Origin: an uncultured Ruminococcus sp. | GTDB lineage: Bacteria; Bacillota; Clostridia; Oscillospirales; CAG-272 | DNA length: 45,435 nt | Reading direction: 5' to 3' | Assembly: GCA_964424525.1 (NCBI GenBank) | Contig: CAYRJG010000001.1 | Location: 1-45,435 of the forward strand | In this document: positions 32,748 through 45,196 of the stretch, in pieces | Layout: every line of letters begins with the position of its first letter | Numbering within the stretch: position 1 is the first letter of the stretch | The notes under the pieces: generated by a model | What the model was told of the DNA's origin: nothing | Databases searched by the model: none | The model's input: only the letters and a program-made list of their open reading frames with translations | Translations under genes and position numbers: made by a program

Positions 32748-35081
32748 TTAATTATAGATTGCTACACCGTTAACAGCGGAAACTATAGCAGCCGCAACGT
32801 CGGTTACCGAAACGATAGCATCATTTGCAGCCTTAACATCAGCCGTGAATCTTTCCATCTCAACCTCAAATGCAGCCTTTGCTTCAGCTACACCCGCGTA
32901 AGTATCCTCGGCATTCTCATTAGCATTATATGCAAGACGAAGAAGCTCACGACGCTTTTCAATAGAATCAAGCGATTCGATTTCTGCAACAAGTGAAATA
33001 AGAGTAGTACTGCTAAACTCGCGGAAGTTTACATCAGCTTCAGCAGCGGAAAGAGCAACATTTGCTTCTTTAACACCGGGATAACCAAGAACGTTACCTG
33101 CATCCTTTAACTCAATTGCAAGAGCAACAGCTTCCTTTTTAGCATAGAAATCATCCTCAGCATCAGCAATAGCATCAACTGCTGCTATGTAAGCATTAGC
33201 GTCTGCTTCAATTGCTGCACGAGTAAGACGAAGCTCATTATAAATTTCAACAGATTCGGTTATGTTCTCATAATCAATTGCAATATCTTTAAAAGCTGCA
33301 ACAGCAAGATCAAGCTTTTCAACAAACACGGTATAGTAAGAAGCGATCTGAGCCTGCTCTACAAGAGAGATAAAGAGTTCGCACTCAGCCTTCTTGGAAA
33401 GGATAGAGGGTTCGGTTCTCTTGTAGTAAGCGATTCTGTTCTTAAGTTCAGCATGAGAATCATTATCAACAGCGGGATGGATAACTCCGTTATTGTAAAC
33501 CTCAAATGCATGAACGTAAGCGGTATAACGCGCACCAAAAGATGCAGAAAGCTCGATAGAATCAACGTGAGTCAAAAACGCGTTGATATTAGCATTGATT
33601 TCATTAAACTTAGCAACGAATGCCTCTGCCTCTTTAACCAATTCGGGAACGCCCTCGTATGTGGGATCGAACTCCGAATAGAAGCGAGTCTGATAAGGAT
33701 ACTTTACGGTATCAAAACCTGCAAAAGCAGTATTATCTTCGGTATATTCATCATTAAGTTCTGCAACCCATACCTGCATCTGAACGTAATTTTTGTTATC
33801 AGCATCATAAACATTGGTCATGAAATCAATGTAGTTTTCAGAATGCTCCTTAACAATAGCTACGCTGGCCTTTTCAGCCGTAAGTGCATTTCTACATTCA
33901 ATGATATCTTCGATAAGTTCAGGAGTAAGACCGGGAGTTGTTGCAAGATCAGCATTCTGAGGAAGCTTTAACTCATACTTTTCAATCTTTTCAATCCATG
34001 CAGCTCTGCCTGCATAGTTGAGAGTATCATCTATTGCACCTGCACGAGCAATAAACTCTGCAGCAAGAGTTTCATACATCTTGGAAATAGAATCAACAGT
34101 ATTCTCATAGCTGATATCTACAGAATAGGTACTGTAAAGCTCGAAAAGAGTATCGGCAATTCTGAGCTTTGTAGCATAATCGGTAGTTTCTGCCGCATAG
34201 AACTCAACAAGATCCTCTACGTGGATTTTGGTGTTTTCCGACTTGTAAGAAGGTGAACGAGTGGTAGTACCCTCATAAATCTCTATGTTATCAAAAGAGA
34301 AGCTTGCTGCGGAGTTTGCGGTATGAGCAACAGAAAGGTTAAATCCTGCCATACCTGTAGCACCCTTAATCTCAACATTTCCTGTATTTACAAGAACTTC
34401 AGCTTCGCTTTCATCATCGGGAACATTCTTAATAATAAGGTTATAGTAATCAGCTTCAGCGTTAAAGGTAATAAGAATATCGTACCATACACCGGTAACC
34501 GCAGTAAAGTCCGCGTATGTATACTTATCGGCTTCCATTATCTGAGTTTCATCATCCCAACCGGAATAAGTAAGAGCACCGGTTTTCATATCGATTTTAA
34601 CGATATCGAAATAACGAGAAGAAGGATCAATCTCGGACTGAAGACCGGCATTAAGCTTAAAGTTAAGTCCATTGGTTGCAGACTCATCAAAATATACTCT
34701 TGCTGAAACAATGAGCTTATCGGTGAGAAGCTCACCGGGAGCAGATTCAAGCTTATAACCAACCGCAGTACGGTTTCTGGGAAGCGACGATGTCAAAACC
34801 ATATTGTCTGGATTCAACGGGTCAGCCGCAATCCCATAAGTAGGAACGTATCTTGATGCCTTGGTGATATTCAAGATATCCTCATTCCATGTTCCGTCCT
34901 CGTAGTTATCCGCAAGATAATCATCAAGAGCGTAATACTCAAGGATCTGTTCGGCCATAGTGATGGATCCAAGTCTGTAATCGTATTCACGATCCTCCTC
35001 CGCTACGGAAGAAAGAGCGAACATAGATGTCAGAAGAGCAATCGCAAGTACAGCCACAAGAATTCTCTTTGCAAATTTCAT
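32748..35081 (-). CDS. Large secreted protein: signal peptide, beta-rich (LamG/concanavalin-like?) domain, then a helical Ala/Glu-rich region of about 500 aa
   Basis: MKFAKRILVAVLAIALLTSMFALSSVAEE is a classical signal peptide. AAGGAGAG SD. I see no LPXTG, lipobox, SLH or choline-binding repeats. Confidence 0.85.
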   Translation of the reverse strand: MKFAKRILVAVLAIALLTSMFALSSVAEEDREYDYRLGSITMAEQILEYYALDDYLADNYEDGTWNEDILNITKASRYVPTYGIAADPLNPDNMVLTSSLPRNRTAVGYKLESAPGELLTDKLIVSARVYFDESATNGLNFKLNAGLQSEIDPSSRYFDIVKIDMKTGALTYSGWDDETQIMEADKYTYADFTAVTGVWYDILITFNAEADYYNLIIKNVPDDESEAEVLVNTGNVEIKGATGMAGFNLSVAHTANSAASFSFDNIEIYEGTTTRSPSYKSENTKIHVEDLVEFYAAETTDYATKLRIADTLFELYSTYSVDISYENTVDSISKMYETLAAEFIARAGAIDDTLNYAGRAAWIEKIEKYELKLPQNADLATTPGLTPELIEDIIECRNALTAEKASVAIVKEHSENYIDFMTNVYDADNKNYVQMQVWVAELNDEYTEDNTAFAGFDTVKYPYQTRFYSEFDPTYEGVPELVKEAEAFVAKFNEINANINAFLTHVDSIELSASFGARYTAYVHAFEVYNNGVIHPAVDNDSHAELKNRIAYYKRTEPSILSKKAECELFISLVEQAQIASYYTVFVEKLDLAVAAFKDIAIDYENITESVEIYNELRLTRAAIEADANAYIAAVDAIADAEDDFYAKKEAVALAIELKDAGNVLGYPGVKEANVALSAAEADVNFREFSSTTLISLVAEIESLDSIEKRRELLRLAYNANENAEDTYAGVAEAKAAFEVEMERFTADVKAANDAIVSVTDVAAAIVSAVNGVAIYN

Positions 35082-35356: not shown

Positions 35357-35385
35357 TTGATTTTTCCGATACAATATGGTAGAAT
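35357..35385 (+). promoter_or_regulatory. Promoter candidate for the Hhe-like gene
   Basis: TTGATT (35357-35362), 17-nt spacer, TGgTAGAAT (hexamer 35380-35385). Confidence 0.55.
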
Positions 35386-35442
35386 GATATTTGCAAATAA
35401 TTTTCGGGAGCAATTTGTTGCACGGTGGAAAGGAGGAACGGT

Positions 35443-38400
35443 ATGTCAAGGAACATTTACACCTATTACAAAGAACGCCTTACCCAAATAGGCGGAGATA
35501 GCAAAAGTCTTTATCTTTCGTCTATCGTTCATTCCTCATCCTGTGACATTGGAAAAATACTCTCCGGACGCGATGAAAAAATTGCAGAATTTATCGCATT
35601 TTTAGGTTCTGACCGTCACTCCGAATTCACGCTCATTTCAAAAAAGGACAAAAAAAGTCTTTTGGACCTTCTCAACGCAACAGAAAGTAGCACCGAATCG
35701 CTTCCGTCTTTAGCAAATCCGGAAAAAGCGCAGCGCGTTGCAAAAATGAATGCACGCAAGCAGCGCGAGGAGCTGAAAAAGGAGCTTAACGAAGAGCTTT
35801 CTTCGATAAAAGCCATCCGAGCTCATTGCGAAGATATAGAAAAAGACACCGGAAAGAATGAGCTTTACGTAGGTTATCCTTTTGTTTTCGGCACGCTTTC
35901 TCATGGCGCGGTTAACACGCCTGTCAAAGCACCGCTTCTTCTCTTCCCTGTCAGGATTGATATAAAAGATGATGAAACCGTTATACTAAAGCATGATTTA
36001 AACGAAAAAATCCTTATTAATCCGTCTTTTATTTCCGCTTACTCCTATGCAAGAAAAATCAACACAGATGCCATTCAGCTTGATTTTGATTCACTTGACG
36101 GGTTCGGCAAACTCGAAAACCTCGCAAAATATATTTGCAAAAACAATATTTCCATAGAGTACTCCGATTCCAGAAACATGTTTGGATATTCAAGATTCAA
36201 GGAGCCTGCCGGTAAGAACAATTTCTCGATAAGATATGCTGCGGTATTATCTCGTTTTTCGCTTTCTCAACCTATATATAACGATTATACCGTTCTGGAA
36301 AAGATAAACGACGCAAACGAAGCAATAGACATTCTTTCGGAGGAATCCACTTCTTATTCTACAATATTTTCCAAGGCTTTTGAGCTTTTCGGAAAATTTG
36401 GAAAGCAGGAAAAGCCTGACGAGGCTACATATACTCTGAAAAATCTTGATTACCGTCAATTTGAAGCGGTTCGCAAGGTCGGAGACGGAAAATGCTATGT
36501 CATAAACACTCCGCCGTTTACGGGGTGTGCAAATGTTGCTGCCGATATGATAGTCGACGCCATTTGTAAGAAGAAACGAGTTTTACTTGTTTCTGACAAA
36601 AAGATGGCACTCGATTCAATCTTCAATACGCTTGGAGATCTAAAGAACAGGTGCGTTTATATCAACGACGAGAGCACCGAGCGCGAAGGCTTTTACGAAA
36701 ATTTGCGTTCAGCTCACGAAAACAGTCTGGCATCACCTCTTGCGGATGCAGATTCGCTTTTGCAATCTCATAAAGGCATAATCGATGAAATAAAAGCCGA
36801 AGAAGCGCATATTATTGCTTTCTTTGATAAGATGTCCGAAAAGCGTCCGTTTGGACTTTCGCTTACGGAGATGTATGATTCATCTTCTGCACTGTCTGCA
36901 AGATCATCGGATATCGATATATATACATCGCTTATTACAAGCCCCGACTTAATGGCACTCGACTACACGGCATTAAAAATTGCCGTTAACGGAATAAAAG
37001 ATGCAGATCTTGCCAAGGCTTATTACGAGTTCATCACGGAAAAGACAGAGAATCCCATATACGGATATATTCATCCCAACCTCGATGGACGTGTGATAAA
37101 AGAGATTCAAGCACTTGTCTCTGCCATAGCGGAAGAAAACAAGCCTGCATTCAATAGCACGAAATATCCGTACTACCGTCAAATCATGGCATACTACGCC
37201 GAGATCAACGATATGGCGGTTCTTGATTCTGCCGTAAAGCACGAAAGCCGCATCAAGCACCCGAAAAAGCTTTTCACATCACGAATCAGAGGTGAGATCA
37301 AAGAGGAATTTCTTGACACGCTTACCGCCATTCGTGAATATGCGCGAGATTATGAGCCCCTAAAACGCATTTTAACCGAAGCCGGATATACCGATGCACT
37401 GTGCAATATTCTTTCCGGAAATTCCGATTATATTGAGAGAATGCGCTCGGCTCTTGCCAAGTACGAAAAAATGCAAATTTGGGAAAAGCTTTTTGCATCA
37501 ACCGACAAGAGAATTATTTCTATTCTTGATTTTGCATACAACAATTCAAAGGATAAGCACCATTTTCTTGATATAATCGAAAAAATTATCCCTCTCAGAA
37601 TATACCACGAGCTTTCGAAATACGAAATAACGGAAAAGGAATTCTTTAAAGCTGCACCGAATCTTTCCGAATCAAGAGAAAAAATAAGCCGTCTTTATGA
37701 ACGCGCAAAAGATTTTACAAACAGCTTGACCGATATTTCTCGCGTAAACGAATACGTTTCCGCTTATATGCAAAACAAAGATAGGGACAAATATCTTGCC
37801 GATATATCCTGCGAAAAAGCTACACTATCAATAAAAAGACTTGTTGACTTTCATGAAAAGCTGATCTTTTCATTATTCCCCTGCTGGCTTCTCACACCGG
37901 AGAATGTTTCAAGTTTGCTACCTCTCAAAAAAAATCTTTTTGATGTCGTAATATTTGATGGAGCATCCCAGATGTTCATAGAAGAAGCGATTCCGGCAAT
38001 ATACCGTGGAAAAAGCATCGCTGTAATGGGAGATGGAAAGCAGATTCATCCGTCAGCCGCTTTTATGAGAAGAATGCTCGGAAACGATGACATTTTTGAA
38101 TCCGGCGAAAAACAGACTGCCCTCGAAGCAAAAAGCCTTTATGATATTGCTCAAAAAAAGCTTCCGATAACAAAATTATCCTATCACTACGGAACCGAAA
38201 AGGACGAATTTATAAACTTTTCAAACCGCGCCTTCTATTCTTCCGAGCTAATAGTTGCTCCAAAGCTACGAAAAAAGCAAAAGCAACGCCCGATAGAGCT
38301 TCATACCGTTGAAGGTAACGTCTTGGAAGGCCGATGCTCCAAGGAAGCAGAAAAAACGGTAGAACTCATCGTTGAGCTTTCGAAGAAAAAAAGAAATACG

Positions 38401-39225
38401 GGAAGCTTGGGCGTTATTACATTTACAAGTGAGCAACGCGATTGCATTATCGAAATGCTTAACGAAAAAATGGCTTGTTCGGAAGAATTGACAAAATTCA
38501 TCGAAAAAGAGAAAGCGCGCACCGAGAAAGGAAAAGATCTCTCATTTTTCGTTAAAACCATAGAAAACGTACAAGGCGAAAGGCGCGACACAATCATTCT
38601 TTCTCCTACTATTTCTCAAAATAACGCAACACGCCCCTCGCCTAACTCGCAAAATACAAGCTTTGATCTTCAAACGTCAATCAATGTTGCCATAACACGC
38701 GCAAAGCAAAAATTCATTCTCGTAAGCGGCGTTTTACCCGAAGATATTGATGACAAAGCTCACGGGATCGAAATCTATAAAAGATTCCTTGAATATATCA
38801 AGGCTTCGGCTGTGGGAACCAAGAGCGAGGTGACTTCAATTCTCTCGGATCTTAGCAATATGACCGATGCAAAAGAAGAGAGAATCTGTTCGCATCCTAC
38901 CACGAAAGAAGGAATAACAGAAAAGCTTGAACGGATGGGTTACACTGTAAAGTCGTATCCGGGAGGCAAGATGAGCAGAATATCTCTCGCGATATACGAC
39001 GAAAAAAAGGATAAATATCTTGCAGGCGTTATTCTTGATGAAGATGCGTTTAAATTTTCGGAGTCGGTTACCGAGCGCGAAATCTACTATCCTCAATATC
39101 TTGAGCTGATGGGATGGACGATACTTCGCGTTACCTCGCGAGAATGGTGGACGGAGCCAAAGAAGGTTTTGACATCTATAATCGAAGCAGCCGAATATAA
39201 CCGTTCAGATATAAAAAATACATAA
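35443..39225 (+). CDS. DUF4011-like / SF1 (UPF1-like) helicase-like / Vsr-DUF559-like protein (Hhe-like architecture) with degenerate catalytic motifs
   Basis: AAGGAGG lies 6 nt before ATG 35443 (the track starts at 35425). DUF4011-like ELYVGYPFVFG...KAPLLLFPVRI. Helicase boxes are recognisable but altered (NTPPFTGCANV, VIFDGASQ, GDGKQIHPS, HYGT, NVQGERRD, INVAITRAK). The C-terminus LAGVILDEDAF...GWTILRVTSREWW resembles Vsr/DUF559. Confidence 0.85.
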   Translation: MSRNIYTYYKERLTQIGGDSKSLYLSSIVHSSSCDIGKILSGRDEKIAEFIAFLGSDRHSEFTLISKKDKKSLLDLLNATESSTESLPSLANPEKAQRVAKMNARKQREELKKELNEELSSIKAIRAHCEDIEKDTGKNELYVGYPFVFGTLSHGAVNTPVKAPLLLFPVRIDIKDDETVILKHDLNEKILINPSFISAYSYARKINTDAIQLDFDSLDGFGKLENLAKYICKNNISIEYSDSRNMFGYSRFKEPAGKNNFSIRYAAVLSRFSLSQPIYNDYTVLEKINDANEAIDILSEESTSYSTIFSKAFELFGKFGKQEKPDEATYTLKNLDYRQFEAVRKVGDGKCYVINTPPFTGCANVAADMIVDAICKKKRVLLVSDKKMALDSIFNTLGDLKNRCVYINDESTEREGFYENLRSAHENSLASPLADADSLLQSHKGIIDEIKAEEAHIIAFFDKMSEKRPFGLSLTEMYDSSSALSARSSDIDIYTSLITSPDLMALDYTALKIAVNGIKDADLAKAYYEFITEKTENPIYGYIHPNLDGRVIKEIQALVSAIAEENKPAFNSTKYPYYRQIMAYYAEINDMAVLDSAVKHESRIKHPKKLFTSRIRGEIKEEFLDTLTAIREYARDYEPLKRILTEAGYTDALCNILSGNSDYIERMRSALAKYEKMQIWEKLFASTDKRIISILDFAYNNSKDKHHFLDIIEKIIPLRIYHELSKYEITEKEFFKAAPNLSESREKISRLYERAKDFTNSLTDISRVNEYVSAYMQNKDRDKYLADISCEKATLSIKRLVDFHEKLIFSLFPCWLLTPENVSSLLPLKKNLFDVVIFDGASQMFIEEAIPAIYRGKSIAVMGDGKQIHPSAAFMRRMLGNDDIFESGEKQTALEAKSLYDIAQKKLPITKLSYHYGTEKDEFINFSNRAFYSSELIVAPKLRKKQKQRPIELHTVEGNVLEGRCSKEAEKTVELIVELSKKKRNTGSLGVITFTSEQRDCIIEMLNEKMACSEELTKFIEKEKARTEKGKDLSFFVKTIENVQGERRDTIILSPTISQNNATRPSPNSQNTSFDLQTSINVAITRAKQKFILVSGVLPEDIDDKAHGIEIYKRFLEYIKASAVGTKSEVTSILSDLSNMTDAKEERICSHPTTKEGITEKLERMGYTVKSYPGGKMSRISLAIYDEKKDKYLAGVILDEDAFKFSESVTEREIYYPQYLELMGWTILRVTSREWWTEPKKVLTSIIEAAEYNRSDIKNT

Positions 39226-39269
39226 ATTATTGCTAATTTGTTATTTTTTTCAAAAAATCCCAAATGGGC

Positions 39270-39298
39270 TTGCAAATTTTAAAAAGATAATGTATAAT
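39270..39298 (+). promoter_or_regulatory. Promoter candidate for yajC
   Basis: TTGCAA (39270-39275), 17-nt spacer, TATAAT (39293-39298). Confidence 0.55.
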
Positions 39299-39332
39299 AT
39301 TTAAAGTTATTAAAAATTGAAAGGTTGATATT

Positions 39333-39737: not shown

Positions 39738-39752
39738 GAAAATTTATAAAAA

Positions 39753-39787
39753 AGAGTCCGCTTGAAAGATAGCGGATTCTTTTTTTG
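39753..39787 (+). terminator. Rho-independent terminator after yajC
   Basis: AGAGTCCGCT-8 nt-AGCGGATTCT followed by TTTTTTT. Confidence 0.8.
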
Positions 39788-43667: not shown

Positions 43668-43696
43668 TTGACAATTATTTTTGCGAGGTGTATACT
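43668..43696 (+). promoter_or_regulatory. Promoter candidate for the beta-helix protein gene
   Basis: TTGACA (43668-43673), 17-nt spacer, TATACT (43691-43696). It overlaps the track's GTG 43688 start, which I therefore reject. Confidence 0.6.
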
Positions 43697-43747
43697 AAAG
43701 GTAGCAAAAAACAATGGAGAGCATATCTTTATTTAAGGAGCTACACT

Positions 43748-45196
43748 ATGAACGAGAAAATTCTTAACTATGAACAATTCGGTGCGGTTGGTGACGGTAT
43801 AACAGATGATATGCCCGCAATAGTTGCCTGCCATAACTATGCAAACGAAAACGGACTCACGGTCACCGTGCGTAACGGTGCAACATATTATATTGGTAAG
43901 CGCGATCTTACAGCAACCATAAAAACAAGCGTAAATTTCGGAACGGCAAAATTCATAATTGATGACAGAGAGCTTGATAATATCAAGACGTCGATTTTCA
44001 ATGTTGCAGAAGACGAAGCTCCTTACGATATTGACATTTCATCACTCTCACAGAATCAAAAAAAGCTGGATTTCCCTCACACGGGTGATGCCTATGTAAG
44101 AATTTTTACCGACAGTCGCAAAATATATATCAGAAAAGGTCTTAACCAAAACGCAGGCGACAATCCTTCGGATTGCTTTATTGTTGATAATGACGGCAAT
44201 ATCAAAAACGAAATCAACTGGAACTATCCGACAATATCAAAAGCATACGCGAAGTCGATAAACGATAAACCTATAACTATTGAGGGCGGTGTTTTCACGA
44301 CCGTTGCAAACCGCGCTCCCTCAAAATATACCTATCACAGAAGAAATTTTCGCATTTCAAGATCCAATGTCACGATAAAAGGACTTACCCACTACATTGT
44401 AGGTGAAGGTGACCACGGAGCTCCGTACGAAGGATTTATTTCAGCTCAGGAGTGCTATAATTTCACTGCCGAAAATCTCCTCTTGACTCCGCACTTTACA
44501 TATATGACTGCAAGCCAGATTCCCGGCAAGGAAGTTTCTATGGGAACTTATGAGCTTTCATTTAGCGCGGCAATAAAAGCACGGCTCATTGGAATCAAAC
44601 AGACTATTGACATCAACGATAACAGATATTGGGGACTTATGGGATCTAATTATTCAAAGGAGATCTCACTTACCGATTGCGTAATGTCGCGATTTGACGC
44701 GCATTGTGGAGTAACTAACGGAAGTATCAAAAATTGCGTTCTCGGTCATCACGGACTCAACCTTATAGGTTTTGGAAAATTTGTTATCGAAAATACAACG
44801 GTTCGCGGTGGCGCGCTCGTCAATTTCAGACCTGATTACGGCTCATTCTTCGACGGTGAACTTACAATCAAAAACTGCACTTGGGTGCCTAGAGCTGTTA
44901 ATCCAAGCTCTATATTCTCCGCGCACAATACGGGCGATCACGACTTTGGATACAAATGTATGCTACCCCACATTTTCAAAATTGAAGGTCTTGATATCAA
45001 GCTTTCGAAGGATTGTGAGCTAACTAAACTTTACATTTTGCCAAATTACGACCCTGAATTCAAGCAGGATAAGCCTTTCAAATATCACACGCCCGAAACT
45101 GTTTACCTCTCCGGCATCACAGTTAACCGTGATGTTGAAATTGAACTTTGTGAAGTTACCGAAGAATACCTTGACACTCAAGCTGAGTGCCTTTAG
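43748..45196 (+). CDS. Right-handed beta-helix (pectate-lyase-3 / GH28-related) protein, no signal peptide
   Basis: AAGGAG lies 8 nt before ATG 43748. N-terminal FGAVGDGITDDMPAI motif typical of the Pectate_lyase_3 family. Confidence 0.82.
   Translation: MNEKILNYEQFGAVGDGITDDMPAIVACHNYANENGLTVTVRNGATYYIGKRDLTATIKTSVNFGTAKFIIDDRELDNIKTSIFNVAEDEAPYDIDISSLSQNQKKLDFPHTGDAYVRIFTDSRKIYIRKGLNQNAGDNPSDCFIVDNDGNIKNEINWNYPTISKAYAKSINDKPITIEGGVFTTVANRAPSKYTYHRRNFRISRSNVTIKGLTHYIVGEGDHGAPYEGFISAQECYNFTAENLLLTPHFTYMTASQIPGKEVSMGTYELSFSAAIKARLIGIKQTIDINDNRYWGLMGSNYSKEISLTDCVMSRFDAHCGVTNGSIKNCVLGHHGLNLIGFGKFVIENTTVRGGALVNFRPDYGSFFDGELTIKNCTWVPRAVNPSSIFSAHNTGDHDFGYKCMLPHIFKIEGLDIKLSKDCELTKLYILPNYDPEFKQDKPFKYHTPETVYLSGITVNRDVEIELCEVTEEYLDTQAECL

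What the first reader, a model, noticed from the sequence alone, without database searches (positions are those of the whole stretch)
35443..39225. Hhe-like DUF4011 / SF1-helicase / Vsr-like giant ORF in which every catalytic motif I can place is degenerate
Seen in sequence, the 1260-aa ORF has three parts in order:
- a DUF4011-like N-terminus (ELYVGYPFVFG...KAPLLLFPVRI);
- a split UPF1-like SF1 helicase core;
- a C-terminal Vsr/DUF559-like PD-(D/E)xK module (LAGVILDEDAF...GWTILRVTSREWW).

From memory, this matches the single-gene antiphage system called Hhe (DUF4011 helicase plus Vsr endonuclease).

The catalytic boxes, however, are altered:
- Walker A reads NTPPFTGCANV where the family has GPPGTGK[ST]; the Gly, Lys and Ser/Thr are all gone.
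- Motif II reads VIFDGASQ instead of DEASQ (codon GGA).
- GDxKQLPPT is GDGKQIHPS.
- HYRS is HYGT.
- QGDERD is QGERRD.
- The first acidic position of the nuclease (rIDlav) reads ISLAI.

Despite this, a 3.8-kb ORF stays open in AT-rich DNA, which argues for selection on the protein. My inference is either an ATPase-dead and nuclease-dead scaffold, sensor or decoy derived from a defence helicase, or a very recent inactivation.
Basis: partly seen in the sequence, partly recalled or inferred. Interest (0 to 1): 0.7.

Follow-up and report, generated by a model that had tools for sequence, protein, structure and literature searches.

The report
ATPase-dead helicase orthologue kept by selection
A 1260-residue helicase-nuclease-like protein of an uncultured gut Clostridia bacterium has lost every residue needed to burn ATP, yet three diverged lineages keep it intact in the chromosomal slot where about 80 related species carry the active version, so it is a naturally occurring "pseudo-helicase", not a broken gene or a mobile phage-defence gene.

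Summary
ORF 35443-39225(+) encodes DUF4011, a split Upf1-like SF1B helicase core and an MTES_1575 (Vsr-like) domain. Walker A Lys/Ser/Gly, Walker B Glu, the motif IV Arg and the motif V Glu are all replaced, and no alternative P-loop exists.

- It is not Hhe or ProA: scores are 221 and 348 bits against cut-offs of 2000 and 1500.
- It belongs to a shorter, single-copy, vertically inherited family of gut Clostridia, in a housekeeping neighbourhood (yajC, pdxK, murA) with no defence-island signal.
- 117 of 120 homologues are canonical. The three exceptions (the window's protein, P0002, P0003; 51-59% identical) share the dead state and form a derived clade nested among canonical-bearing species.
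- The inactivation is ancient, not recent. Synonymous sites are nearly saturated and ω is about 0.25-0.35, against about 0.12 for canonical orthologues. The gene evolves about 3.3 times faster but stays under purifying selection.
- The nuclease's missing first Asp (ISLAI) is shared by the whole family and predates the ATPase loss.

Best reading: a non-catalytic binding or scaffold protein. The closest analogies are RecC, AddB and Utp25. Its function is untested.

The parts
35357..35385 (+). Promoter-like site (TTGATT-17-TAGAAT with TG extension) upstream of the gene
   Evidence: Consensus scan. The number of sites is not above shuffles, so this is weak evidence.
35430..35436 (+). Shine-Dalgarno AAGGAGG, 6 nt before the ATG
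   Evidence: Sequence read directly.
35443..39225 (+). Complete ORF of 1260 aa: ATPase-dead DUF4011 / SF1B-helicase-like / MTES_1575-like protein
   Evidence: The N-terminus aligns from residue 1 with all homologues.
35623..36033 (+). DUF4011 domain (aa 61-197). The core YPFVFG...KAPLLLFPV is conserved in all homologues.
   Evidence: Pfam E=4.8e-8. Invariant columns. The AF2 model shows a beta-sheet at aa 141-192 after a long helix.
36430..36702 (+). RecA1 N-terminal part (aa 330-420): Q motif kept (Q339), Walker A lost, motif Ia partly kept
   Evidence: 36% of canonical-invariant sites are changed in all three clade members, and dN is 6.1 times canonical.
36505..36546 (+). Former Walker A: NTPPFTGCANVAAD in place of YGPPGTGKSQTIVN (G356T, G359F, K362C, S363A)
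36703..37842 (+). All-helical insertion of about 380 aa that splits RecA1 (aa 421-800)
   Evidence: AF2 secondary structure and the alignment.
37843..38142 (+). RecA1 C-terminal part (aa 801-900), the best-conserved block of the dead clade (68-71% identity). It includes PCWLLTPENVS...LPLKKNLFD.
37948..37971 (+). Former Walker B / motif II: VIFDGASQ (E840G, codon GGA)
38029..38055 (+). Motif III: GDGKQIHPS (family consensus GDAKQLRPS; R869H is shared by the clade)
38143..38742 (+). RecA2 domain (aa 901-1100; Pfam AAA_12 at 903-1095)
   Evidence: Foldseek matches to Upf1-like helicases.
38185..38196 (+). Motif IV: HYGT (R917G)
38572..38589 (+). Motif V: QGERRD (E1047R; Lys in P0003)
38683..38706 (+). 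Motif VI: NVAITRAK, retained (R1086 is invariant in all homologues)
38911..39189 (+). MTES_1575 (Vsr/DUF559-like PD-(D/E)xK fold) domain, aa 1157-1249, without the canonical acidic residues
   Evidence: Pfam E=4.6e-16. Alignment with ProA nuclease domains.
38980..38994 (+). ISLAI: Ser1181 at the position of the first catalytic Asp (ProA has IDLGI). The state is family-wide.
39028..39045 (+). VILDED: I1197 at the position of the Glu in ProA VECDG and family VELDKD. The change is shared by the clade (Ile/Met/Ile) but also occurs in some canonical members.

Best explanation
This is the orthologue of a conserved, single-copy SF1B (Upf1-like) helicase of a lineage of uncultured gut Clostridia. In one sub-lineage the gene was converted long ago into a pseudo-enzyme.

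Shown:
- The ATP site is dismantled: Walker A Lys to Cys, Ser to Ala and two Gly lost; Walker B Glu to Gly; motif IV Arg to Gly; motif V Glu to Arg/Lys; motif III Arg to His.
- The change is derived, happened once, and predates the split of three lineages now 51-59% identical.
- The gene still sits in the ancestral slot next to yajC, pdxK and murA.
- It evolves about 3 times faster than its active orthologues but remains under purifying selection.

Inferred:
- The protein can no longer bind or hydrolyse ATP, so it cannot translocate or unwind.
- Its Vsr-like domain lacked the first metal-binding Asp in the whole family already, and in this clade also lacks the Glu, so it is probably not a nuclease.
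- The protein is kept for a role that needs no ATP. The most likely roles are binding of nucleic acid or of a partner, through the parts that stay conserved: the DUF4011 core, the PCWLL-PENVS / motif II-III block of RecA1, motif VI and the nuclease-fold domain. RecC, AddB and Utp25 use dead helicase folds in this way.

The cellular process served is unknown, for the active family as well.
For: Architecture and dead motifs. Of 120 homologues, 117 have a canonical Walker A (GPPGTGKSQT) and only the window's protein, P0002 and P0003 differ. No other P-loop exists in the three proteins.

Upf1-like fold: PDB profile hits to IGHMBP2, Sen1, UPF1 and DNA2. Foldseek hits to Aquarius, DNA2, SETX, UPF1, IGHMBP2 and nsp13 at E=1e-7 to 1e-4.

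Positional orthology: the same gene order (orf306, orf291, large secreted protein, helicase, yajC, DUF3792, pdxK, murA) occurs in the dead locus L003 and in canonical loci L004, L005, L008-L011 and L019. yajC lies within 400 bp downstream in 47 of 60 loci.

Derived state and gene-specific acceleration: in the MurA+PdxK tree the window and L003 are monophyletic (100/100), nested, and sister to five canonical-bearing species (100/100), with normal housekeeping branch lengths.

Rate: at MurA 65-70% identity, canonical helicase pairs are 72-86% identical and the dead pair is 53%. dN is 0.34-0.44 against 0.12, which is 3.3 times overall, 4.7-7.1 times in the N-terminus and RecA domains, and about 3 times elsewhere.

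Selection:
- Four-fold sites are 37-40% identical against 25-26% at saturation.
- ω is 0.25-0.35, against 0.12 for canonical orthologues and 0.21 for neighbouring murA.
- Neutral substitution at only 0.1 per site gives about 17 stop codons, with P(open ORF) below 1/2000.
- 199 of 357 family-invariant sites are kept in all three proteins.
- The new residues persist through synonymous turnover: TGT/TGC, GGA/GGT, CAT/CAC.

Independent assemblies (NCBI, ENA, Logan) carry the dead state.
Against: - No biochemical or expression data exist, and only three sequences are known, all from metagenomes. None was found in JGI metagenomes or among the GTDB species representatives.
- Purifying selection is weaker than in the active orthologues, so part of the protein may be dispensable.
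- The former catalytic positions are now conserved only at the average level: 35 of 81 share the same new residue, against 42% of all columns identical. Nothing points to a specific new active site.
- Nucleic-acid or partner binding is inferred from conservation only.
- AF2 gives low confidence around the former P-loop (aa 301-361) and aa 865-949. No canonical control was run, so local unfolding cannot be excluded.
- The function of the active parent family is itself unknown.
Confidence: 0.7

Rival explanations
1. RecC-like arrangement. The dead protein is a regulatory or scanning subunit that works with an active helicase or nuclease encoded elsewhere in the same genome, possibly a canonical paralogue acquired before the local copy died. 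It supplies binding specificity while the partner supplies the motor.
For: There is precedent for inactivated helicase and nuclease-like domains used for DNA recognition inside RecBCD and AddAB (PMC1185551, PMC4614115). Motif VI and many surface blocks are retained.
Against: The family is single copy in the 80 assemblies sampled: 80 loci come from 80 different assemblies. No other helicase is found in the 45-kb window. The dead gene occupies the orthologous slot and is not an extra copy. The rest of the genome could not be searched.
Confidence: 0.12
2. It is an Hhe/ProA-type single-gene anti-phage protein, or a decoy or sensor derived from one. The family acts in defence and this clade carries a disarmed copy.
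For: The best profile matches are to the defence models PDC-S37 (330 bits), ProA (348 bits) and Hhe (167-221 bits). The DUF4011-SF1B-MTES_1575 core is shared. Hhe is described as a single gene with helicase and nuclease domains (10.1101/2024.10.10.617714). Two loci have an Mrr restriction gene nearby.
Against: - Scores are far below the equivalog cut-offs, while true ProA proteins score about 2200 bits.
- The protein lacks ProA's N-terminal extension and DUF3320.
- Only 37% of the PDC-S37 profile is covered.
- The slot is conserved and housekeeping, the gene is single copy, and helicase divergence tracks MurA and PdxK divergence (rho 0.50 and 0.36).
- Canonical ω is about 0.12.
- 66 of 68 ORFs in the variable flanks are metabolic or housekeeping.
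- The presumed effector nuclease lacks its first catalytic Asp in the whole family.
Confidence: 0.1
3. It is a non-functional relic. The gene died with the ATPase and is drifting towards loss, and the open frame is only inertia.
For: Substitution is 3.3 times faster in every domain, and this continues within the clade. Former catalytic positions are no longer specially conserved. The clade is rare.
Against: - Three intact ORFs of 3.8 kb persist after a synonymous divergence of about 1.2-1.45 per site.
- The neutral simulation gives about 17 stops at only 0.1 substitutions per site.
- ω is 0.25-0.35, similar to neighbouring murA at 0.21.
- 56% of family-invariant sites are kept in all three proteins.
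- The ribosome-binding site is intact.
Confidence: 0.05
4. It is still an NTPase or helicase that uses a non-canonical nucleotide site.
For: The Q motif (Q339), the motif VI Arg (R1086) and the GD.KQ core of motif III are retained.
Against: The Walker A Lys, Ser and two Gly, the Walker B Glu, the motif IV Arg and the motif V Glu are all lost together. No alternative P-loop or Walker B is present. The Pfam AAA_11 and AAA_19 models no longer detect the N-terminal RecA half.
Confidence: 0.03

Closest known systems
Canonical ~1250-aa DUF4011 helicases of uncultured gut Clostridia (e.g. P0011, P0109, P0121), annotated only as 'DUF4011 domain-containing protein'
   Same: Same length, the same three-domain order with a helical insertion in RecA1, and the same chromosomal slot next to yajC, pdxK and murA. 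The Ser at the nuclease's first Asp position is shared. Identity is 38-44%.
   Different: They keep GPPGTGKSQT, DEASQ, HYRS and QGDERD, and they evolve about 3 times more slowly (ω about 0.12). The window's protein has lost all of these residues.
ProA anti-phage protein (NCBIfam NF058533) / PADLOC candidate PDC-S37
   Same: This is the best-scoring profile. It shares the DUF4011, Upf1-like SF1B and MTES_1575 core in the same order.
   Different: The score is 348 bits against a cut-off of 1500, while true ProA proteins score about 2200. True ProA is about 1960-1985 aa, with a ~400-aa N-terminal extension and a C-terminal DUF3320. It has an intact P-loop and the first nuclease Asp (IDLGI/IDIGI); the Enterobacter ProA reads VECDG while the B. 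finegoldii ProA reads ICDG. The examples found lie on plasmid records. I found no paper on ProA or PDC-S37 in the library.
Hhe (NCBIfam NF042953, PADLOC PDLC02194), a single-gene helicase-nuclease defence system of E. coli
   Same: It carries DUF4011, an SF1 helicase and a Vsr-like nuclease in one polypeptide.
   Different: The score is 221 bits against a cut-off of 2000, and the match covers only the C-terminal third. The window's protein has no defence context, and both catalytic centres are degenerate.
RecC (RecBCD) and AddB (AddAB): inactivated SF1 helicase folds, in RecC together with an inactivated nuclease-like domain
   Same: A helicase-nuclease scaffold has lost catalytic residues and is retained for a non-motor role such as DNA recognition or scaffolding (PMC1185551, PMC4614115).
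   Different: They belong to a different helicase lineage (SF1A UvrD/Rep-like), are obligate subunits of complexes with active motors, and were inactivated far longer ago. Here the active orthologue still exists in sister species. This is a functional analogy only.
Utp25/Def pseudohelicase of the eukaryotic SSU processome
   Same: A helicase fold with degenerate ATPase motifs is kept as a structural or binding factor (PMC9539457).
   Different: It is a eukaryotic, SF2 DEAD-box-like protein and is unrelated in sequence.
Upf1-like SF1B helicases with solved structures (UPF1, IGHMBP2, SETX/Sen1, DNA2, Aquarius, nsp13)
   Same: They share the fold of the two RecA domains, with insertions in RecA1.
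   Different: All of these are active ATPases. Sequence identity is 11-18%. They have no DUF4011 and no Vsr-like domain.

Membership tests
Hhe anti-phage protein (NCBIfam NF042953 equivalog) | Whole-protein score at or above the curated cut-off (2000 bits), over the full-length profile | tested here: not met
   The score is 221.4 bits, matching residues 792-1256 to profile positions 1241-1686 of 1797. The canonical orthologue P0011 scores 361 bits.
Hhe anti-phage protein (NCBIfam NF042953 equivalog) | Protection against phage when expressed | not testable with these tools
   This needs a plaque assay with the cloned gene.
ProA anti-phage protein (NCBIfam NF058533) / PDC-S37 | Score at or above 1500 bits, with the full architecture: N-terminal extension, DUF4011, SF1 helicase, MTES_1575 and DUF3320 | tested here: not met
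   The score is 348 bits, covering profile positions 1077-1706 of 1903. The PDC-S37 match covers 771-1345 of 1550. Pfam finds no DUF3320 and no N-terminal extension, whereas the true ProA proteins L089 and L091 have both and score 2197 and 2224 bits.
Defence-island gene (operational criterion for defence systems) | Patchy distribution and enrichment of known defence genes in the neighbourhood | tested here: not met
   The synteny is conserved and housekeeping. Only 2 of 68 ORFs in the variable flanks are defence-type (Mrr), and the other PADLOC hits are generic ABC-ATPase similarity. The 80 loci come from 80 assemblies. Helicase divergence correlates with MurA and PdxK divergence.
DUF4011 (Pfam PF13195) | Score above the gathering threshold (22.2 bits) | tested here: met
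   33.6 bits, E=4.8e-8, residues 61-197. P0002 and P0003 score 37.4 and 39.8 bits.
Upf1-like SF1B helicase, fold | Two RecA-like domains with motifs Q and I-VI in order, and structural similarity to UPF1, IGHMBP2 and DNA2 | tested here: met
   AAA_12 scores 51 bits. PDB profile hits to IGHMBP2, Sen1, UPF1 and DNA2. Foldseek probability 1.00 to Aquarius, DNA2, SETX, UPF1 and IGHMBP2. All motif positions can be aligned.
Upf1-like SF1B helicase, enzyme | Walker A GxxxxGK[ST], Walker B DE, and the motif IV and VI arginines needed for ATP hydrolysis | tested here: not met
   K362C, S363A, G356T, G359F, E840G, R917G, E1047R and R869H. Only the motif VI Arg1086 and Q339 remain. No alternative P-loop exists. 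Activity itself was not assayed.
MTES_1575 / Vsr-like PD-(D/E)xK nuclease | Pfam PF18741 score above the gathering threshold (38.2 bits) | tested here: met
   59.1 bits, E=4.6e-16, residues 1157-1249.
MTES_1575 / Vsr-like PD-(D/E)xK nuclease | Acidic catalytic residues: Asp of the 'IDL' strand, and Glu and Asp of 'ExD' | tested here: not met
   Asp is replaced by Ser1181 in all 82 family members. The Glu is Ile1197 here (Ile/Met/Ile across the clade). Only D1199 is kept. Among the 152 superfamily sequences scanned, the first position is Asp in 117 and Ser in 18.
Pseudo-enzyme / pseudo-helicase (RecC, AddB, Utp25 type) | Recognisable enzyme fold, catalytic residues lost, gene retained under purifying selection | tested here: met
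   Fold. Loss of residues. Selection: ω 0.25-0.35, three intact ORFs, and the neutral simulation.
Pseudo-enzyme / pseudo-helicase (RecC, AddB, Utp25 type) | A demonstrated non-catalytic function (binding, scaffolding) | not testable with these tools
   This needs binding assays, interaction partners or genetics.

The most novel reading that the evidence does not exclude
The ~1250-aa DUF4011 helicase family of gut Clostridia is a housekeeping relative of the anti-phage proteins Hhe and ProA, not a defence gene. The dead clade is then a natural separation-of-function mutant. It would show that the role for which the gene is retained needs neither ATP hydrolysis nor nuclease activity, for example a nucleic-acid clamp or an assembly scaffold. 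It would be an early-stage, still-comparable version of the transition that produced RecC from a helicase-nuclease.
Probability: 0.3. Interest if true: 0.6.

Novelty: new variant of a known kind. Interest (0 to 1): 0.45.

Why it matters
Pseudo-helicases such as RecC, AddB and Utp25 are known only as ancient end-products. Here the active and dead forms are positional orthologues in sister species, so the residues and domains that matter for the ATP-independent role can be read from the comparison and tested by swapping motifs.

The result also cautions against annotating every DUF4011 / SF1 / Vsr-like protein as 'Hhe' or 'ProA' defence. This family is vertically inherited, sits among housekeeping genes, and had already lost a key nuclease residue. 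Lastly, it points to an uncharacterised, strongly conserved helicase family found in more than 330 gut Clostridia species.

Tried and rejected
- Metagenome scan with an alignment of the three dead proteins. The tool chose low-complexity peptide patterns, and none of the 600 stretches was a relative.
- A clade-specific DNA pattern for VIFDGASQMF, validated on the window, L001 and L003, found nothing in JGI metagenomes.
- Exact look-up of the window's protein for its source record: not on record. Cluster look-up gave no names or accessions. The organism therefore could not be named beyond 'uncultured gut Clostridia/Eubacteriales', by analogy with its neighbours.
- Rfam scan of the window: nothing reached the gathering score in any family.
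- Literature searches for ProA, PDC-S37 and DUF3320 found no paper describing them. The first Hhe search was swamped by HHEX papers.
- The midpoint-rooted helicase NJ tree put the dead clade outside all canonical members. I rejected this as long-branch behaviour, because the MurA+PdxK tree nests these species inside the family.
- The first regional dN table was wrong, because L066 has an in-frame stop that shifted the codon indexing. I recomputed it without L066.
- NG86 dS is undefined (saturated) for the dead pairs, so I used four-fold-site distances instead.
- I considered a new Cys-based site, since Cys is gained at positions 34, 129 and 362 in all three proteins and P0003 reads CxxCxxxC. 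The CxxC pattern is not shared, so I did not pursue it.
- AF2 low confidence at the former P-loop is not used as evidence, because no canonical control could be run.

Full report
**1. The observation**

An ATG at 35443 follows an AAGGAGG Shine-Dalgarno sequence by 6 nt, and the frame runs to the stop ending at 39225, giving 1260 aa. The N-terminus aligns from residue 1 with all homologues.

Pfam finds three domains: DUF4011 at residues 61-197 (E=4.8e-8), AAA_12 (the RecA2 half of Upf1-like helicases) at 903-1095 (E=1.8e-13), and MTES_1575 (a Vsr/DUF559-like PD-(D/E)xK fold) at 1157-1249 (E=4.6e-16). The AAA_11/AAA_19 models that normally detect the P-loop half do not fire.

A profile of the family hits IGHMBP2, Sen1, UPF1 and DNA2 among solved structures. 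An AlphaFold model of residues 301-1260 (pLDDT 73, pTM 0.56) matches Aquarius, DNA2, SETX, UPF1, IGHMBP2 and nsp13 in Foldseek. The 'split' core is RecA1 interrupted by an all-helical insertion of about 380 residues.

**2. The motifs**

I aligned the 120 best homologues found among 5.8 billion proteins.

| Motif | 117 canonical homologues | The three exceptions |
|---|---|---|
| Walker A | [VI][YS]GPPGTGKSQT | NTPPFTGCAN / NTPPFTRCAS / HTPPCTDCAK |
| Walker B | DEASQ | DGASQ in all three |
| Motif III | GDxKQLRPS | GDG[KM]QIHPS |
| Motif IV | HYRS | HYGT / NYGG / HYGI |
| Motif V | QG[DE]ER[DE] | QGERRD / QGDRRD / QGEKRD |
| Motif VI | NVA[IV]TRA[KR] | retained (NVAITRAK or NVSITRAK) |

The three exceptions are the window's protein, P0002 and P0003. 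The Q-motif Gln is also retained.

Of 357 positions that are at least 97% conserved in 79 canonical orthologues, 199 are kept in all three and 81 are changed in all three. The changes are enriched in the two RecA halves (36% and 31%) and are rarest in the nuclease-like domain (10%).

Two details need correcting:
- The family's motif III is GDAKQLRPS, not GDxKQLPPT.
- 'ISLAI' is not peculiar to this gene. Every canonical orthologue also has Ser at that position, whereas true ProA proteins read IDLGI/IDIGI. Among the 152 superfamily sequences scanned, the position is Asp in 117 and Ser in 18.

The nuclease-like domain therefore lost its first catalytic Asp in the ancestor of the whole ~1250-aa family, before the ATPase died. 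The dead clade then also lost the Glu of VELD (Ile/Met/Ile) and changed D1213 to Glu.

**3. What family it belongs to**

The best profile matches are the defence models PDC-S37 (330 bits), ProA (348 bits) and Hhe (167-221 bits), but all are far below the curated cut-offs of 1500 and 2000 bits and cover only the C-terminal part of those profiles.

True ProA proteins fetched from a Bacteroides record and an Enterobacter plasmid score about 2200 bits. They are about 1960-1985 aa long, with a ~400-aa N-terminal extension and a C-terminal DUF3320. Even a canonical member of the window's family scores only 569 bits for ProA and 361 bits for Hhe. The protein is thus a relative of these proteins but a member of neither family.

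**4. Genomic context and inheritance**

The locus of P0003 has the same gene order as the window: polysaccharide deacetylase, hexapeptide acetyltransferase, a large secreted protein, the helicase, yajC, a DUF3792 membrane protein, a PdxK/ThiD-like kinase and murA. Canonical orthologues sit in the same slot.

- A scan of one genome per GTDB species found relatives in 330 species, all uncultured gut Clostridia/Eubacteriales MAGs. The 80 loci kept come from 80 different assemblies, so the gene is single copy there.
- yajC lies within 400 bp downstream in 47 of 60 loci.
- The segments that vary between loci hold GH20 glycosidases, ABC transporters, permeases, HPr kinase and purine genes. Only 2 of 68 ORFs (Mrr) are defence-type.
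- The remainder of the window is ordinary chromosomal core, with MetRS, enolase, TatD and DNA polymerase III delta-prime.
- Helicase divergence tracks MurA and PdxK divergence among canonical pairs (Spearman 0.50 and 0.36).

This is the signature of a vertically inherited cellular gene, not of a mobile defence system.

**5. Polarity and age of the inactivation**

In a MurA+PdxK tree the window and L003 are monophyletic (100/100 bootstraps). They lie five nodes deep and are sister to five species that carry canonical helicases (100/100). Their housekeeping branch lengths are normal (0.346 and 0.351 against a mean of 0.344). The dead state is therefore derived, arose once, and the acceleration is specific to this gene.

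The event is old. The three proteins are only 51-59% identical, and four-fold synonymous sites are 37-40% identical against 25-26% expected at saturation. The Walker A Lys-to-Cys change needed all three codon positions to change (AAG to TGY). The new residues also show synonymous variation between lineages: TGT/TGC, GGA/GGT, CAT/CAC. 'Very recent inactivation' is excluded.

**6. Selection**

At the same species divergence (MurA 65-70% identical), canonical helicase pairs are 72-86% identical and the dead pair is 53%.

| Region | dN relative to canonical |
|---|---|
| Whole gene (0.34-0.44 against 0.12) | 3.3x |
| First 60 residues | 7.1x |
| RecA1 N-terminal part | 6.1x |
| RecA1 C-terminal part | 4.9x |
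| RecA2 | 4.7x |
| DUF4011, insertion, nuclease-like domain | about 3x |

The elevated rate holds within the clade, so the constraint remains relaxed and this was not a single burst.

Even so, ω estimated with four-fold-site distances is 0.25-0.35. That compares with 0.12 (range 0.03-0.18) for canonical pairs, and with 0.21 and 0.15 for murA and pdxK of the same two genomes. In a neutral simulation, 0.1 substitutions per site already introduces about 17 stop codons into this ORF, and none of 2000 replicates stayed open. The three real lineages are separated by about 1.2-1.45 synonymous substitutions per site and all keep the full frame. The gene is therefore maintained by purifying selection on the protein.

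**7. Mechanism**

*Shown.* The fold is kept, the catalytic residues are gone, and the protein is retained.

*Inferred.* Without the P-loop Lys and Ser, the catalytic Glu and the motif IV Arg, the protein cannot couple ATP to movement. Without the Asp and Glu of the PD-(D/E)xK centre, the C-terminal domain is unlikely to cleave DNA.

What selection preserves is the following:
- the DUF4011 core (YPFVFG...KAPLLLFPV);
- the PCWLL-PENVS...KN-FD-VIFD block and motif III of RecA1, which is the most conserved segment of the dead clade at 68-71% identity;
- motif VI;
- 70% of the invariant positions of the nuclease-fold domain.

The most economical reading is an ATP-independent binding or scaffold role that the active parent also performs. 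RecC and AddB (PMC1185551, PMC4614115) and Utp25 (PMC9539457) are analogies, not relatives.

I give this reading 0.7. The four rivals are a RecC-like partnership with an unseen active paralogue (0.12), a defence or decoy role (0.10), a drifting relic (0.05), and a non-canonical NTPase (0.03).

**8. Limits**

- Only three sequences carry the dead state, all from metagenome assemblies. None was found in JGI metagenomes or among the GTDB species representatives.
- The rest of the genome, expression and activity could not be examined.
- The function of the active family is unknown.
- AF2 confidence is low around the former P-loop (aa 301-361) and aa 865-949 in both models. No canonical control could be run, so I draw no conclusion from it.
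- Former catalytic positions are now conserved only at the average level (35 of 81 share one new residue, against 42% of all columns identical), so there is no sign of a new active site.

**9. Novelty and score**

Catalytically dead helicase homologues are a known kind. The domain architecture is known from Hhe and ProA. What is new is a documented, selection-maintained dead orthologue inside an otherwise active, core, uncharacterised DUF4011 helicase family, plus the finding that this family does not behave like a defence gene. I rate it a new variant of a known kind, with interest 0.45.

Noticed in passing
L066:6001-9798 (canonical orthologue, assembly JBGVRO010000052.1): This otherwise canonical family member has an in-frame stop at codon 286 (…GDYCVL*KKNLTNDAI…). 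It could be a true pseudogene, a sequencing error or recoding. It also broke my first codon-indexed dN table.
   Followed up: partly
P0238 (1233 aa) and P0151 (535-aa fragment): These are two other superfamily representatives with impaired ATPase motifs. P0238 reads GPPGTGRSQV (Lys to Arg), FEEAVQ, GDEKQVLA and QGDVRD, yet keeps an intact nuclease (CIDLGI, IECDG). P0151 reads APPGTEKSQA. They may be independent, partial inactivations elsewhere in the DUF4011 superfamily.
   Followed up: no
window 38980-38994 and all 79 canonical orthologues: The first catalytic Asp of the Vsr-like domain is Ser in the entire ~1250-aa Clostridia family, and in 18 of the 152 superfamily sequences scanned. The 'nuclease' of the active helicases is therefore probably non-catalytic too. 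This is a family-level feature worth testing in its own right.
   Followed up: partly
window 32748-35081 (-), and the equivalent gene in L003, L005, L008-L011 and others: The divergently transcribed upstream gene encodes a 777-aa protein with a signal-peptide-like N-terminus and no Pfam match. It evolves very fast: 47% identity to L003 and 23-35% to the others, while the flanking genes are 65-83% identical. Its length varies (778-1174 aa), and it is absent from many loci, where orf291 abuts the helicase.
   Followed up: partly
L022, L031, L036, L044, L079, L080, L083 and one other locus: the segment between the helicase and yajC: A GH20 glycoside hydrolase gene (eight ORFs matched; the ones I inspected are about 500-566 aa on the opposite strand) is inserted between the helicase and yajC in a subset of species. 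Other loci have ABC-transporter pairs plus an Mrr restriction gene there (L006, L014). The helicase-yajC junction is thus a recurrent insertion point.
   Followed up: partly
window protein residues 34, 129 and 362 (nt 35542-35544, 35827-35829, 36526-36528): All three dead proteins gained Cys at three positions where the canonical proteins have Tyr, Val/Ile and the P-loop Lys. P0003 additionally reads C359-x-x-C362-x-x-x-C366. No shared metal-binding pattern is evident.
   Followed up: partly
window 39226-39332 and 39748-39785: No terminator-like hairpin lies between the helicase stop and yajC. A strong one (15-bp stem followed by a T-run) follows yajC, and a promoter-like site lies at 39270-39298. 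Read-through co-transcription of the helicase with yajC is possible but untested.
   Followed up: no
window 1-28711 or 43688-45196 (one of the 26 ORFs scanned as a set): One ORF matches the IS200-like transposase family Y1_Tnp (E=9.8e-37), and one matches a PLD-domain protein, which gives generic PADLOC 'DrmC' hits. The summary output did not say which ORFs these are.
   Followed up: no
AF2 models of window protein residues 301-1260 and 1-1100: Both models give pLDDT below 50 for the strand and loop that carried the Q motif and P-loop (aa ~301-361) and for aa ~865-949 (between motifs III and IV), while the helical insertion and most of RecA2 are confident. No canonical control was possible, so it is unclear whether this reflects the degenerate sequence.
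   Followed up: no
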